A stretch of 64,000 nucleotides of DNA from a virus. Taxonomy: Duplodnaviria; Heunggongvirae; Uroviricota; Caudoviricetes. The translations under genes were made by a program, and so were the position numbers. The notes beneath the pieces are model-generated. The model saw nothing but the letters and a program-made list of their open reading frames with translations. It searched no databases and was not told where the DNA came from. The stretch is from the IMG/VR virus record IMGVR_UViG_2703718777_000015. One strand, 5' to 3'. Position 1 is the first letter of the stretch. Every line of letters begins with the position of its first letter. This document shows positions 50,965 through 53,851 of this stretch, in pieces.

Positions 50965-51060
50965 GCTTGTTTAATAAATGCACAATTGGATCTAATAACC
51001 TCTTTTTTTTAAAGGCGAAAATATGTACCCTAAATGAGTTATAAGGCAGGTGAGGTTATA

Positions 51061-51699
51061 ATGAGAAAACTATTACTACCGTTATTATTTATGGCTGGGA
51101 CTGTTAATGCTGCATCAAGTGTAAAGGAGATTTGTACCGACTACACGAAATACCTTGGGCACGTTTACGGTTTCACTGTCAGTCAAGACGGCAAGATGAA
51201 AAAAGCTCTCCAGAATGATATGACGCGCTTAAGTTTGTCTGAAGCAATGGTTCAGCAAGAAATGTATAAGGTTGCGACAGATGATGCTGCAAAAATGTAT
51301 TATTCGAAATTTCTTAATCCTAATCTTAATGAATATAACCGTTCGGCTTTTAATCAGATGGTAGCGTATTGTGAAACTGCACCAGATATGATGATTCCTA
51401 GTTGGGCTGTATTAGTGGCTAATGGAAAAATTCGCAAAGAAGACCAAGGAAAATCTTTAAGTAGCTATATAAATAGCGAACAATTTCTGAATGCGCGTGG
51501 CATGCGCACTCAAAATACTCAAGGTGCGCTTGAGCGGAGGGCTTTAGGGACCGTTGATGCAAATGATACTGATAATTTGCCCCCTGGAATAAAAAAATGT
51601 GTTGAAACTAAGTTAACTCTGATGAAGCGGGACAGCCCTAACATTCCTGTTTCACAACTTACCGCTACGGCAACTAGTCTCTGCAAAGACGGGCTTTAA
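51061..51699 (+). CDS. secreted hypothetical protein (signal peptide), AT-rich island gene 1
   Basis: MRKLLLPLLFMAGTVNAASS signal peptide; visibly AT-rich codons. Confidence 0.6.
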   Translation: MRKLLLPLLFMAGTVNAASSVKEICTDYTKYLGHVYGFTVSQDGKMKKALQNDMTRLSLSEAMVQQEMYKVATDDAAKMYYSKFLNPNLNEYNRSAFNQMVAYCETAPDMMIPSWAVLVANGKIRKEDQGKSLSSYINSEQFLNARGMRTQNTQGALERRALGTVDANDTDNLPPGIKKCVETKLTLMKRDSPNIPVSQLTATATSLCKDGL

Positions 51700-51763
51700 A
51701 TGTAAAGATATTCGAAGAAATGTTATTTTAAGGCGTTTTATCTGTGACTGGAGATAGTTAATC

Positions 51764-52114
51764 ATGTCATCTGAACATGTTCGTAAAGGTGTAACAAATG
51801 CGAAATTCAATGAAGAGCAATCTAATATTCTCTTTATTGAAATAGGAATTCTGTCAATACTGATAGGTTTAATGTCTAAATCATGGTGGGCCTTTGGCGG
51901 TTCTTTTCTTGGACTGATTTTTAGTTTAAGAATAAAATTTCTGGCAATACCATTGATGATTGTCTTTAGCTTAGTATGGGGAGCTATTGGCTATAGTATT
52001 GGTACTTTGTTTGAATCAACAGCAGCAAGTATTGTTTTGGGGGTAATTGCTTTCCTGAGTGGCTTGGGTACTCATTTTGCTGCCGTGCAATGGGCAAATG
52101 ATATTGCAGAATAA
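51764..52114 (+). CDS. small integral membrane protein (3 TM), island gene 2
   Basis: Three hydrophobic helices. Confidence 0.6.
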   Translation: MSSEHVRKGVTNAKFNEEQSNILFIEIGILSILIGLMSKSWWAFGGSFLGLIFSLRIKFLAIPLMIVFSLVWGAIGYSIGTLFESTAASIVLGVIAFLSGLGTHFAAVQWANDIAE

Positions 52115-52136
52115 TTACAGATAAGAAGCGAAAAGA

Positions 52137-52613
52137 ATGAATATGAGATGGTTTTTATTATTTGTATCGTTAGTTTCAGCAGGATCATTTGCAAAAATTG
52201 ATCCTCTACAATGGAATGTAATTGAAGAGAGAGGGGGAAGAGAATATACAATCCATAATCATAATGGTGATAAGATAAGTTTTTTATGTGATATGGGATT
52301 CATGTATGGTTCACCAGATAGTGCAGGTAGTTTAGGCTTGTTGCTAAGTTCGTCGAATAATAAAAAGGAGTATAATGCTGACAAGAATAAAATAGTATTA
52401 ACTATAGATGGTGAGCAATATCCTTTTAGCAATCTTGGGTCAATGGTTGGAGATTCTTGGTGGTATGCCTTTTGGCAAGATGCAGCAGATTCAAATGCTA
52501 ATATGATTGATGCTTATGTTGACAATGAAAAAATTGCTACATTCCCTCTTTCTGGGCTAAGTAAGTTGTATCAACAAGCCAAAATGGATGGATGTATTAA
52601 ACGAGGCAAATGA
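52137..52613 (+). CDS. secreted hypothetical protein (signal peptide), island gene 3
   Basis: MNMRWFLLFVSLVSAGSFA signal peptide. Confidence 0.6.
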   Translation: MNMRWFLLFVSLVSAGSFAKIDPLQWNVIEERGGREYTIHNHNGDKISFLCDMGFMYGSPDSAGSLGLLLSSSNNKKEYNADKNKIVLTIDGEQYPFSNLGSMVGDSWWYAFWQDAADSNANMIDAYVDNEKIATFPLSGLSKLYQQAKMDGCIKRGK

Positions 52614-52687
52614 TCTTTCTGTGTTAAAGACTAACGCAACCAATAAAACATTGGTTGCGTAATATTCTATTATATAGATGGAATAAT

Positions 52688-53722
52688 ATGTCAAAAATTA
52701 CTAATTCTAATGAGTTGGAGTTACTGTACAAACAGTCAGTAATCATTCCATCATACAAAGATCACGTAGCGATCTTGCAAAAACAATTAGGAATAGAAAA
52801 ATATTCTTTTCAAAATATGACAAGATTGAATAGACAAGCTGTAATTAGTAACTCTCTTCGGAAACAATTGGCTAGTATGCCGAACTTGGCTGGAATAGGC
52901 AGCAAGTATCGTGAACATATCGCGATTTTACAGAAACAGACTCAGGCTCTTTTTCCTCATGACGCAAATAAATACATTCAAATGCTAAGGAAACAGGCAG
53001 AAATTGCCATGCCGTTGCGAAACCAGTTAGAGATACTTAATAAACAGGCTGGTTTAAATAACATGCAGGCGATGCTTAATGAATTAAGACAACATGTAAA
53101 TTATAAGACAGATTTAAATAATGGAATAGCACTATTATTAAAACAATATACTCTGGCAAAAGGTTCTCCATTGCATCAAGTAATGGAGCAAGGTCTTTCA
53201 TCTATTGCACAGGCTTATGCTGAAAGTGCTACTGAAACATCACACACGAAAAGCAATGTTCAAAACAAAGGATTAAATAAATATAGCTCAAAGTTTGTTG
53301 ATTCATTTAAAGAGCTTCCTTATCCACTGCAATGGTTACTAATGGTTATATTTTCTCAAGTTGTGTTTGGTGTTTTTATTGATTACGGAAAAGAGAAAAC
53401 CTTGCTGGGAATACACAAGGCAGAATCATATTTTATATCTCTGCTTGAGGATAAACCAATATCAAAACAACAATTAATTAAAGAAAACAAAGAAATTAGT
53501 TGGGAAGATCTCAATGGTTTTCGTTTTATAACTGGTGAGAACGTAAGATTACACGTCAGTCCTTCTATAAATAGTGAGGTGATTGAATGCATTGGCAAAA
53601 ATACTATAGTGGCTGTTTTAGATAAAAAAGATCGCCAATGGCTTTTCGTGCAGGTTAAATCAGGGGACGAGTTTATTACTGGATGGATTACACGAACATA
53701 CACAAAGCCTCTTAAGGCTTGA
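52688..53722 (+). CDS. membrane-anchored protein: N-terminal tandem (A/E)ILQKQ repeats, one TM helix, C-terminal SH3b-like domain; island gene 4
   Basis: Repeats HVAILQKQ / HIAILQKQ / LEILNKQ / ALLLKQ; TM LQWLLMVIFSQVVFGVFIDY; C-terminal beta-rich segment. Confidence 0.6.
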   Translation: MSKITNSNELELLYKQSVIIPSYKDHVAILQKQLGIEKYSFQNMTRLNRQAVISNSLRKQLASMPNLAGIGSKYREHIAILQKQTQALFPHDANKYIQMLRKQAEIAMPLRNQLEILNKQAGLNNMQAMLNELRQHVNYKTDLNNGIALLLKQYTLAKGSPLHQVMEQGLSSIAQAYAESATETSHTKSNVQNKGLNKYSSKFVDSFKELPYPLQWLLMVIFSQVVFGVFIDYGKEKTLLGIHKAESYFISLLEDKPISKQQLIKENKEISWEDLNGFRFITGENVRLHVSPSINSEVIECIGKNTIVAVLDKKDRQWLFVQVKSGDEFITGWITRTYTKPLKA

Positions 53723-53851
53723 ATTTTATCACCGTATCTTGGGGCTGGGTGTTGATGACGATGTGCTACTTGAAGTACTTGAATTTTTTAACGCAGCATC
53801 TGAAATGTGTAGACTGACTGGTAACAAATGACAACTCGTAGAATCGGTTAA

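What the first reader, a model, noticed from the sequence alone, without database searches (positions are those of the whole stretch)
50966..53760. AT-rich four-gene island of secreted/membrane proteins beside the immunity locus, where P1 carries sim
Genes 51061-53722 are conspicuously AT-rich against the surrounding backbone, so they look recently acquired. All four products are envelope-targeted: two signal-peptide proteins, a 3-TM protein, and a protein with tandem ILQKQ-type repeats, one TM helix and a C-terminal SH3b-like domain. The island sits divergent to the c4-icd-ant operon at the C1 operator. No sim-like gene precedes c4 here, so the island occupies the slot of P1's superinfection-exclusion gene. 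I recognise no known defence or toxin family in it; a novel exclusion or envelope-acting abortive-infection module is the leading hypothesis.
Basis: partly seen in the sequence, partly recalled or inferred. Interest (0 to 1): 0.78.

Follow-up and report, generated by a model that had tools for sequence, protein, structure and literature searches.

The report
Mosaic envelope-protein cassette in P1's sim slot
This AT-rich four-gene block fills the known swap-prone "sim" (superinfection-exclusion) slot of a P1-like phage-plasmid, and its first gene is the full-length form of P1's stunted simA and carries a short motif copied from the phage's own DNA-injection protein, Sit, which hints that it blocks entry of rival phages, though this is untested.

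Summary
Region 50966-53760 is the lowest-GC stretch of the 64-kb window (35.7% vs 47.0%, about 4 SD). It encodes four predicted envelope proteins between the C1 operator Oc4 and the late promoter LPsit, which is the simABC slot of P1, in the same orientation.

It is not a single recently acquired island. The slot is a published low-GC hypervariable region of P1-like phage-plasmids. The window's content is a rare chimera (5 of 5,426 E. coli genomes) of two cassettes found separately elsewhere.

- Gene 1 is the full-length SimA-family protein; P1's 52-aa SimA is its 5' stump.
- Gene 3 belongs to the uncharacterised YfjT/YkfB family.
- Genes 1 and 3 are old, fast-evolving residents. In Cronobacter phage JK004 the pair sits directly upstream of pmgC-tub-pmgB-sit, with no immunity region nearby.
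- Genes 1-3 are under purifying selection.

No known defence, toxin, SimB or SimC homology was found.

New lead: gene 1's flexible tail carries a motif homologous to a conserved motif in the C-terminal tail of Sit, the tape-measure/transglycosylase protein. The best reading, which is inferred, is envelope-level superinfection exclusion, with gene 1 acting as a periplasmic Sit decoy.

The parts
50948..50964 (-). C1 repressor operator Oc4 (Op51). It marks the left edge of the variable slot.
   Evidence: One mismatch to the C1 operator consensus. It corresponds to the annotated Oc4 of P1 and P7. Homology with P7 ends at 50962.
50965..51060 (+). Leader and promoter region of the cassette, equivalent to P1's predicted PsimA (about 50969-50995). 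Includes the Shine-Dalgarno sequence GGTGAGG before the 51061 start.
   Evidence: 97% identical to the P1 DNA that carries the annotated predicted PsimA. Sequence read. Promoter activity was not tested.
51061..51699 (+). Gene 1 (F1): full-length SimA-family secreted protein, 212 aa. It has a signal peptide, a helical domain (residues 21-120), a flexible linker (130-170) and a Cys-bracketed helical hairpin (175-209).
51469..51549 (+). Sit-like linear motif in gene 1 (aa 137-163, INSEQFLNARGMRTQNTQGALERRALG).
   Evidence: blastp against the window's Sit gives E = 1e-5, and 5e-9 for the commoner allele. PHROG profile hits are reciprocal. A relative matches sit at 22 of 24 nucleotides. hhalign gives E = 2.8e-4 at 41% probability. 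Sit is the only window ORF that matches.
51764..52114 (+). Gene 2 (F2): small polytopic inner-membrane protein, 116 aa, 3-4 TM helices.
   Evidence: Hydropathy analysis. Matches phrog_15014 of unknown function. No Pfam or PADLOC hit. Seen only next to gene 3 in the loci inspected. dN = 0 against the three-gene variant.
52137..52613 (+). Gene 3 (F3): YfjT/YkfB-family (PF27224) periplasmic protein, 158 aa, beta-rich with one long helix and two conserved Cys (C51, C153).
52634..52660 (.). 11-12 bp perfect hairpin between genes 3 and 4, with no clear T-run. Possibly an attenuator or an RNA-stability element.
   Evidence: Terminator-like scan. Not tested further.
52688..53722 (+). Gene 4 (F4): bitopic membrane protein, 344 aa. 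Predicted cytoplasmic N-terminal region with eight 17-aa repeats (aa 9-160), a TM helix (212-234) and a predicted periplasmic SH3b domain (285-338).
   Evidence: The family has 48 clusters, all in Enterobacteriaceae P1-like contigs. The TM+SH3 part is nearly invariant while the N-terminal part is hypervariable in sequence and length. dN/dS is 0.40, with a mosaic patch at aa 129-170.
53821..53844 (+). Right edge of the variable slot and the late promoter LPsit (about 53826-53844), which drives pmgC-tub-pmgB-sit.
   Evidence: Homology with P1 and P7 resumes at 53823 and 53821. LPsit position mapped from the P1 and P7 annotation.
58886..58966 (+). Sit motif copy 1 (Sit aa 949-975, KFMNGRGMRREVVQGTLEERARGKGTA). 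This is the counterpart of the gene 1 motif.
   Evidence: Invariant in E. coli P1-like Sit proteins. Conserved in JK004 Sit, which is only 46% identical overall.
59066..59125 (+). Sit motif copy 2 (Sit aa about 1009-1028, MGIDGLFDKLLNSPGMRKNN).
   Evidence: It lies in a segment of about 53 aa that is absent from the JK004 and L050 Sit proteins.

Best explanation
SHOWN.
- The region is the sim hypervariable slot of a P1-like phage-plasmid. It is bounded by the C1 operator Oc4 and the late promoter LPsit.
- Here the slot is filled by a recombinant of two cassettes. One is a full-length SimA-family secreted protein (gene 1). The other is a three-gene set: a small polytopic inner-membrane protein (gene 2), a YfjT/YkfB-family periplasmic protein (gene 3), and a bitopic membrane protein (gene 4) with a predicted cytoplasmic 17-residue-repeat region and a predicted periplasmic SH3b domain.
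- Genes 1-3 are under purifying selection.
- Gene 1's flexible tail carries a motif homologous to a conserved, twice-repeated motif in the uncharacterised C-terminal tail of Sit. Sit is the tape-measure protein with a lytic transglycosylase domain, and it is ejected into the recipient's envelope.

INFERRED.
- The cassette is transcribed from the PsimA-equivalent promoter in the lysogen.
- Its products sit in the periplasm and inner membrane.
- They interfere with incoming P1-like phages after adsorption, at the stage of cell-wall penetration and DNA entry. This is the stage at which P1 Sim acts.
- Gene 1 would work as a decoy. Its N-x-(R/P)-G-M-R / QGxLExRAxG motif would occupy the host or phage partner that the incoming Sit tail must engage.
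- The SH3b protein would be tethered to peptidoglycan. It, the YfjT-like protein and the small membrane protein would add further layers or specificities, by an unknown mechanism.
For: Slot identity and orientation:
-.
- The literature lists simABC as a low-GC variable region that is dispensable for plaque formation.

Gene 1 is a SimA family member and heads sim-type loci:
- P1 SimA matches its N-terminus.
- A 98.6%-identical copy directly precedes a SimC homologue (35% identical to P1 SimC) in NZ_CP027575.1.

All four products are predicted to be exported or membrane-bound.

Sit motif:
- blastp E = 1e-5 and 5e-9.
- Sit hits the gene 1 family profile phrog_3933 at E = 1.7e-4, and gene 1 hits the Sit profile phrog_2533 at E = 0.011, at matching positions.
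- 22 of 24 nucleotides are identical in the VQGTLEER core.
- hhalign gives E = 2.8e-4.
- Sit is the only window ORF that matches.
- The motif is retained in a Sit that is only 46% identical overall.
- In the AF2 model the motif sits in a low-confidence, probably flexible segment.

Linkage to the sit operon rather than to the immunity region: JK004 has bplB-F1-F3-pmgC-tub-pmgB-sit.

Fast evolution under constraint:
- Gene 1 is 49% and gene 3 is 37% identical between JK004 and the window, against 73-83% for the flanking tail proteins.
- dN/dS is 0-0.12 for genes 1-3.

Precedents for exclusion or defence through tape-measure proteins:
- T4 Imm binds the T4 tape-measure protein.
- SNIPE associates with tape-measure proteins.

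In D6-like prophages, the differences between variants were in the vicinity of simB and in the sit sequence.
Against: - There is no experimental evidence for any of the four proteins.
- There is no homology to SimB or SimC, the proven P1 exclusion determinant, and none to any PADLOC defence model.
- The Sit similarity is short (about 35-45 residues) and the hhalign probability is only 41%.
- The extended QGTLEERARG part is present in only a subset of the gene 1 family. Many members, including JK004's, keep only the N-A-P-G-M-R core.
- Sit's first motif is invariant in E. coli P1-likes, so no co-variation test was possible. The alleles of the second motif showed no obvious association with slot type.
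- P1's simA is truncated, yet the Sim phenotype is attributed to simC, so SimA is not required for that exclusion.
- Topology, secretion and expression in lysogeny are all predictions.
- The folds of genes 1 and 3 gave no functional clue.
Confidence: 0.4

Rival explanations
1. Lysogenic-conversion cargo unrelated to phage exclusion. On this reading the envelope proteins change host physiology, for example cell-wall or outer-membrane properties, stress tolerance, bacteriocin immunity or colonisation. The slot would simply be a permissive site for AT-rich 'moron' genes.
For: - The slot also hosts unrelated envelope proteins, such as a lipoprotein and a DUF5384 protein in P7 and a DUF4760 gene on the opposite strand.
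- Gene 3's relatives YfjT/YkfB sit in cryptic prophages of K-12 with no known phage phenotype.
- There is no defence homology.
- Gene 2 has the size and topology typical of small membrane immunity proteins. This is a resemblance only.
Against: - It does not explain the Sit-derived motif in gene 1.
- It does not explain the conserved position immediately upstream of the pmgC-sit operon in a divergent phage.
- It does not explain why gene 1 pairs with SimC homologues.
Confidence: 0.25
2. Abortive-infection or envelope-acting suicide module. The bitopic SH3b protein would sense peptidoglycan damage or an incoming tail in the periplasm and signal through its cytoplasmic repeats. The small polytopic protein would then permeabilise the membrane.
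For: - Gene 4's architecture, with a predicted periplasmic binding domain, a TM helix and a variable predicted cytoplasmic region, resembles that of a transmembrane sensor.
- Gene 2 is a small multi-TM protein.
- In other architectures genes 3 and 4 abut or overlap, with a 1-nt gap or a 14-nt overlap, which suggests co-translation.
Against: - There is no toxin, nuclease, pore-forming or holin family match.
- In the loci inspected, gene 4 occurs without gene 2 and gene 2 occurs without gene 4, so the two are not an obligate sensor-effector pair.
- There is no evidence of toxicity.
Confidence: 0.1
3. Lytic-cycle accessory genes of the tail/injection module. These would be exported proteins that assist the phage's own infection or release. 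Examples are modulating Sit's transglycosylase, or preventing progeny from injecting into cells that are already infected or lysing.
For: - In JK004 the gene 1 + gene 3 pair is embedded co-directionally in the tail-gene block.
- Gene 1 shares a motif with Sit.
Against: - P1 (gene 1 truncated, no gene 3) and P7 (neither gene) are fully viable phages.
- The sim genes are non-essential in CRISPRi mapping.
- In the window the late promoter LPsit lies downstream of the cassette, so the cassette is not part of the late tail transcript.
- Exported proteins cannot take part in cytoplasmic tail assembly.
Confidence: 0.1
4. Recently acquired foreign DNA with no function in this element, either decaying genes or chance ORFs in AT-rich sequence.
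For: - The lowest GC content in the window.
- The exact four-gene combination is rare.
Against: - Purifying selection: dN/dS of 0.10, about 0 and 0.12 for genes 1-3.
- Each gene has a conserved family with intact reading frames across many elements.
- Confident AF2 models for genes 1 and 3.
- Low GC is a property of this slot in all P1-like elements.
Confidence: 0.03

Closest known systems
P1 simABC (superimmunity / superinfection-exclusion locus; SimC is the active, signal-peptide-processed protein)
   Same: - Identical genomic slot and orientation, between Oc4 and LPsit/pmgC.
- Same leader and putative promoter DNA.
- Gene 1 shares SimA's N-terminus, including the signal peptide.
- The products are predicted to be exported.
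- Low GC.
- Gene 1 can directly precede a SimC homologue.
   Different: - No SimB or SimC homologue is present.
- Gene 1 is 212 aa against P1 SimA's 52 aa, so P1's simA is the truncated form.
- Genes 2-4 have no counterpart in P1.
- No exclusion phenotype has been shown.
T4 Imm and Sp (spackle), and other prophage exclusion proteins that act on the injection machinery (HK97 gp15, TP-J34 Ltp; recalled from general knowledge apart from the papers read)
   Same: - Small phage-encoded inner-membrane or periplasmic proteins that block genome entry after adsorption.
- T4 Imm was recently reported to bind the tape-measure protein.
- The proposed target here is also the tape-measure protein, Sit.
   Different: - No sequence or fold similarity to these proteins was found with the searches run here.
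- The proposed mode is mimicry of a tape-measure motif (a decoy), not binding of the tape-measure protein.
- All of this is untested.
YfjT/YkfB family (PF27224), E. coli K-12 cryptic-prophage proteins of unknown function
   Same: Gene 3 is a member. It has the same length, a signal peptide and two conserved cysteines, and is 26% identical to K-12 YfjT.
   Different: - In K-12, yfjT follows ypjK and yfjS, which are unrelated to genes 1, 2 and 4.
- The family has no assigned function.
Bacterial SH3b (SH3_3, PF08239) cell-wall-binding domains of endolysins and autolysins
   Same: Gene 4's C-terminal 55 residues match SH3_3. All 19 family members match, and there is a weak hit to an amidase PHROG through this domain.
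   Different: - There is no catalytic domain.
- The SH3b domain is fused to a TM helix and a 17-residue-repeat region.
- Peptidoglycan binding was not tested.
Variable region 4 (simC, simB, simA) of P1-like phage-plasmids (Wang et al. 2022, PMC9603915)
   Same: This is that region. It is low in GC and its content varies between elements.
   Different: That paper catalogues the variability but does not describe this cassette's content, the full-length SimA or the Sit-like motif.

Membership tests
P1 Sim superinfection-exclusion system (simABC) | Located between the C1 operator Oc4 (c4-icd-ant side) and pmgC, and transcribed towards pmgC | tested here: met
P1 Sim superinfection-exclusion system (simABC) | Contains a SimC homologue, the protein that confers exclusion | tested here: not met
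   blastp of all four proteins against P1 SimC gave no hit better than E = 6. A SimC-like gene exists in a sister locus but not in this window.
P1 Sim superinfection-exclusion system (simABC) | Contains a SimB homologue | tested here: not met
   The best hit against SimB has E = 1.3.
P1 Sim superinfection-exclusion system (simABC) | Excludes superinfecting P1 after adsorption | not testable with these tools
   Needs phage challenge experiments.
SimA family (phrog_3933; 'simA domain protein') | Sequence homology to SimA, including the N-terminal signal peptide | tested here: met
   92.5% identity over 40 aa to P1 SimA. phrog_3933 at E = 8e-87. Database names on relatives.
YfjT/YkfB family (PF27224) | Profile or sequence homology to YfjT | tested here: met
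   PF27224 tag on a 99%-identical cluster and on distant relatives. blastp to K-12 YfjT at E = 8e-7. RefSeq product name. The local Pfam copy lacks this model.
SH3_3 (PF08239) domain proteins | Profile match above Pfam's gathering score | tested here: inconclusive
   The window protein scores 25.9 bits against a cut-off of 27. All 19 family members match at E <= 0.01, with a best E of 2.3e-9. The domain assignment is therefore sound at family level.
Known anti-phage defence systems (PADLOC-DB v2) | Any component matching a defence-system model | tested here: not met
   No hit at E <= 1 for any of the four proteins.
Abortive-infection / toxin modules | Presence of a recognisable toxin or effector domain (nuclease, pore-former, NADase, holin and similar) | tested here: not met
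   No such family in Pfam, NCBIfam, PHROGs or PADLOC. Novel effectors cannot be excluded.
Periplasmic lysozyme / transglycosylase inhibitors (Ivy, MliC/PliC, PliG; T4 Sp as functional analogue) | Sequence or fold similarity to a known inhibitor | tested here: not met

The most novel reading that the evidence does not exclude
The sim slot of P1-like phages encodes a layered, fast-evolving envelope barrier aimed at the injection apparatus of related phages.

- Full-length SimA would be a periplasmic molecular mimic of a short linear motif in the tape-measure/transglycosylase protein Sit. That would make it the first exclusion protein known to work as a tape-measure decoy.
- The YfjT/YkfB family would be a widespread, unrecognised family of periplasmic phage-exclusion proteins. 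This family includes two uncharacterised K-12 'y-ome' genes.
- The Sit C-terminal motif would mark a step in myophage DNA entry that depends on a partner not yet identified.
Probability: 0.22. Interest if true: 0.75.

Novelty: new variant of a known kind. Interest (0 to 1): 0.5.

Why it matters
P1 is a workhorse of E. coli genetics, and P1-like phage-plasmids are common carriers of resistance genes. Even so, the mechanism of P1 superinfection exclusion and the role of Sit's C-terminal tail in DNA entry remain unknown.

- **simA is a stump.** Showing that P1's simA is the remnant of a conserved secreted protein changes how the locus should be read.
- **A concrete experiment.** The Sit-derived motif gives a cheap test: mutate the motif in gene 1 and in sit, then measure exclusion and entry. 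This could reveal both an exclusion mechanism and the partner Sit needs in the envelope.
- **A first hypothesis for yfjT and ykfB.** Placing gene 3 in the YfjT/YkfB family gives a first testable idea for two uncharacterised K-12 prophage genes.

If the cassette has nothing to do with phages, the finding reduces to a catalogued variable region with hypothetical cargo.

Tried and rejected
- **Positive selection on gene 4.** I suspected dN/dS above 1 because DNA identity was high and protein identity was lower. The computed ratio is 0.40 overall. The differences cluster in one mosaic patch (aa 129-170) that looks like a recombination tract, and the C-terminal part is nearly unchanged. Rejected.
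- **Sequence searches against solved structures.** Nothing meaningful for genes 1, 3, 4 or the Sit C-terminal region.
- **Co-variation of the gene 1 motif with the resident Sit motif across 54 IMG/VR loci.** Sit's first motif is invariant, and the two alleles of the second motif occur with every slot type. Uninformative.
- **Is the Sit motif a known appendage of SLT domains?** No Pfam or NCBIfam model covers Sit 870-1142.
- **Relatedness of K-12 ypjK and yfjS, or P7 upf50.5 and upf50.0, to the island proteins.** None found.
- **Other within-element similarities.** No island protein matches any window ORF other than Sit.
- **Phage records.** No INPHARED phage encodes gene 4. Only two isolated phages carry relatives of genes 1 and 3.
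- **False positives.** Three hits of the exhaustive gene 3 search (P0087, P0091, P0098) are repeat proteins and were discarded.

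
Full report
**What is there.** The window is a P1-like phage-plasmid. On the minus strand lie repL (47533-48378), kilA (48408-49208), ant1/2 (49372-50415) and icd (50412-50633), followed by the c4 region and the C1 operator Oc4 at 50948-50964. On the plus strand lie four genes:
- gene 1, 51061-51699
- gene 2, 51764-52114
- gene 3, 52137-52613
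- gene 4, 52688-53722

After these come the late promoter LPsit (about 53826-53844) and pmgC, tub, pmgB and sit. The stretch 50966-53760 is 35.7% GC. Same-size stretches across the window have a mean of 47.0% and an SD of 2.7%, so this is the lowest value in the whole 64 kb. Third-codon-position GC is only 24-34%.

**The four products.**
- Gene 1 (212 aa) has a classical signal peptide.
- Gene 2 (116 aa) is hydrophobic from residue 19 to 108, which fits 3-4 TM helices.
- Gene 3 (158 aa) has a signal peptide.
- Gene 4 (344 aa) has eight copies of a 17-residue repeat (shuffled controls give a mean of 0.74 and a maximum of 4) and one TM helix at 212-234. It ends in a C-terminal SH3_3 domain, which is marginal in this protein (25.9 bits against a cut-off of 27) but present in all 19 relatives tested.

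In P1, simA, simB and simC are on the pmgC strand and divergent from c4. The cassette therefore occupies the sim slot in the sim orientation. A sim-like gene is also present: P1's 52-aa SimA is 92.5% identical to the first 40 residues of gene 1, signal peptide included. P1-window DNA homology runs 109 nt into gene 1 and then breaks. P1's simA is thus the 5' stump of a longer gene that was truncated when the simB-simC segment replaced the rest. None of the four proteins resembles SimB, SimC or the two P7 slot proteins.

**Not one island, and not recent.** The simABC region is already listed as one of eight low-GC, highly variable regions of P1-like phage-plasmids (PMC9603915), and the sim genes are dispensable for plaque formation (PMC10695390). 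Comparing slot contents across plasmids and viral contigs shows independent modules:
- F1, the gene 1 / full-length SimA family
- F2, the gene 2 family
- F3, the gene 3 family
- F4, the SH3 protein family
- a DUF4760 gene on the opposite strand
- simB-simC
- the P7 pair

Observed arrangements are F1-F3, F1-F3-F4, F2-F3-F4, F2-F3+DUF4760, F1+SimC-like, F1 stump-simB-simC, and the window's F1-F2-F3-F4.

Counts among about 630 P1-like plasmids that share the flanks:

| Module | Plasmids |
|---|---|
| F3 | ~180 |
| SimC | ~140 |
| Full-length F1 | ~90 |
| F4 | 64 |

The complete four-gene arrangement is in three plasmids, in 5 of 5,426 complete E. coli genomes, and in none of 54 IMG/VR loci.

The window is a chimera. 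Its gene 1 is 98.6% identical to a copy that precedes a SimC homologue in NZ_CP027575.1. Its genes 2-4 are about 96% identical to the common three-gene cassette, which lacks gene 1. The junction is near 51718.

**Age and selection.** In Cronobacter phage JK004 the order is bplB-F1-F3-pmgC-tub-pmgB-sit, all co-directional, with no immunity or repL block in between. The F1-F3 pair is therefore anchored to the head of the pmgC-sit operon and not to the immunity locus, and it predates the P1/JK004 split. It evolves much faster than its neighbours: F1 is 49% and F3 is 37% identical between JK004 and the window, against 73-83% for the flanking tail proteins. Between close relatives, genes 1-3 show purifying selection, with dN/dS of 0.10, about 0 and 0.12. 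Gene 4 is at 0.40 because of one mosaic patch. These are functional genes, not decaying imports.

**What the proteins are.**
- No PADLOC defence model matches. Pfam and NCBIfam give nothing but SH3_3. All four fall in PHROG families of unknown function.
- Gene 3 belongs to the YfjT/YkfB family (PF27224). This rests on precomputed tags, the RefSeq product name, and 26% identity to K-12 YfjT at E = 8e-7.
- That family is tiny, with 21 representatives among 1.84 billion proteins, and it is uncharacterised.
- The gene 1 model (pLDDT 80) has a confident helical domain at 21-120, a flexible segment at 130-170 and a Cys-bracketed helical hairpin. It has no informative fold match.
- Gene 4's family (48 clusters, all from Enterobacteriaceae P1-like contigs) keeps the TM helix, linker and SH3b domain almost invariant, while the repeat region varies greatly in sequence and length.

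**The new lead.** Gene 1's flexible segment carries a motif, ...FLNARGMRTQNTQGALERRALG.... In the commonest allele this reads ...GIDSIRNAPGMRHQNVQGTLEERARGPG.... It is homologous to a motif in Sit's C-terminal tail, ...NKFMNGRGMRREVVQGTLEERARGKG... at Sit 949-975, with a shorter second copy, ...GIDGLFDKLLNSPGMRKNN..., near residue 1020. The evidence is as follows.
- blastp gives E = 1e-5 for the window protein and 5e-9 for the common allele.
- Profile hits are reciprocal and database-wide. Sit hits the F1 profile phrog_3933 at E = 1.7e-4, and gene 1 hits the Sit profile phrog_2533 at E = 0.011, at matching positions.
- 22 of 24 nucleotides are identical in the core, with the differences at third codon positions.
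- hhalign gives E = 2.8e-4, though only 41% probability.
- Sit is the only ORF in the window that any island protein resembles.
- The motif is retained in JK004's Sit, which is only 46% identical overall.
- The motif lies downstream of the SLT domain (about residues 750-900), in a region with no Pfam, NCBIfam or PDB match. That region has not been resolved in P1 cryo-EM work (PMC9024508, PMC12810830).

The N-A-P/R-G-M-R core is nearly universal in the F1 family. The QGTLEERARG extension is present in only a subset of members, which includes this window.

**Most likely mechanism (inferred).** The cassette would be transcribed from the PsimA-equivalent promoter beside Oc4. Its products would populate the periplasm and inner membrane of the lysogen and act on incoming P1-like phages after adsorption, the stage at which P1 Sim acts. 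Gene 1 would act as a decoy for whatever the ejected Sit tail must bind. The SH3b protein, the YfjT-like protein and the small membrane protein would add further layers by an unknown mechanism. Targeting of tape-measure proteins by exclusion or defence proteins has recent precedent: T4 Imm (bioRxiv 10.64898/2026.03.06.709160) and SNIPE (PMC13190303). In D6-like prophages, variants were reported to differ specifically around simB and in sit (PMC6799933).

I put about 0.9 on 'sim-slot accessory cassette', about 0.4 on 'envelope-level exclusion', and about 0.2-0.25 on the specific decoy mechanism. The rivals are:
- unrelated lysogenic-conversion cargo (0.25)
- an abortive-infection sensor/effector (0.1)
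- a lytic-cycle accessory (0.1)
- functionless imported DNA (0.03, contradicted by the selection data)

**Verdict.** However, this is not a recent acquisition, it is not an obligate four-gene unit, and it does not lack sim homology. It is a new variant of a known kind of locus. Two points are worth an experiment: simA is a stump of a conserved secreted protein that carries a Sit-derived motif, and the YfjT/YkfB family is the most frequent non-Sim occupant I counted in the P1 exclusion slot.

Noticed in passing
L003 (P1 NC_005856.1) simA, equivalent to window 51034-51189: P1's annotated 52-aa simA is the truncated 5' end of a 163-246-aa gene that is intact in about 90 P1-like plasmids. P1-window homology breaks 109 nt into the gene.
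   Followed up: yes
window 52634-52660: A perfect 11-12 bp hairpin (ACGCAACCAAT...ATTGGTTGCGT) lies between genes 3 and 4 and has no clear T-run. In other slot architectures genes 3 and 4 abut or overlap instead (a 1-nt gap in L006, a 14-nt overlap in L007).
   Followed up: partly
window 50607-51717 vs L002 (NZ_OY754380.1): The c4/leader region differs between this element and the common three-gene variant, which probably reflects a different immI (c4/ant) allele. RefSeq annotates a 39-aa 'ash family protein' CDS over what is the c4 antisense-RNA gene in P1, and this looks like a mis-annotation.
   Followed up: no
window 59066-59125 (Sit aa ~1009-1028) and the surrounding ~53 aa: The second copy of the G-M-R motif lies in a segment that is present in E. 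coli P1-like Sit proteins but absent from the JK004 and L050 Sit proteins. This copy has two alleles (LFDKLRNSPGMRK and LYDKLINARGMRS) that circulate among otherwise near-identical Sit proteins.
   Followed up: partly
L005 3948-4841 and L007 4330-5292 (other P1-like plasmids, same slot): Some slot variants carry a ~300-aa DUF4760 membrane protein on the opposite strand, either replacing the SH3 gene or following it. This is another cargo gene of unknown function.
   Followed up: no
window 46300-50900 vs L012 (Cronobacter phage JK004): JK004 lacks the whole repL-kilA-ant-icd-c4 block between bplB and the gene 1 homologue. In E. coli P1-likes, therefore, the immunity-I/lytic-replicon block sits as an insertion inside what is otherwise a continuous tail-gene cluster.
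   Followed up: partly
window, 10 sites (e.g. 14830-14846, 30539-30566, 33826-33842, 49278-49294, 50948-50964): There are ten matches (3 or fewer mismatches) to the 17-bp C1 operator consensus, against 0.4 expected by chance. One is an overlapping inverted pair at 30539-30566.
   Followed up: no
window 57400-58200 (inside sit): GC drops to 39-43% within sit, upstream of the SLT domain. This may mark a mosaic segment of the tape-measure gene.
   Followed up: no
NZ_CP015229.1 (E. coli 06-00048 chromosome) 1824264-1826361: The three-gene cassette also appears on a chromosome record of a strain whose plasmid record (NZ_CP012497.1) carries it. The cause could be an integrated P1-like element or an assembly artefact.
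   Followed up: no
L014 (E. coli K-12 CP4-57) 12446-13616: K-12 yfjT lies in a ypjK-yfjS-yfjT cluster downstream of the regulator yfjR, in the same cryptic prophage as the abpAB and rnlAB anti-phage genes.
   Followed up: partly
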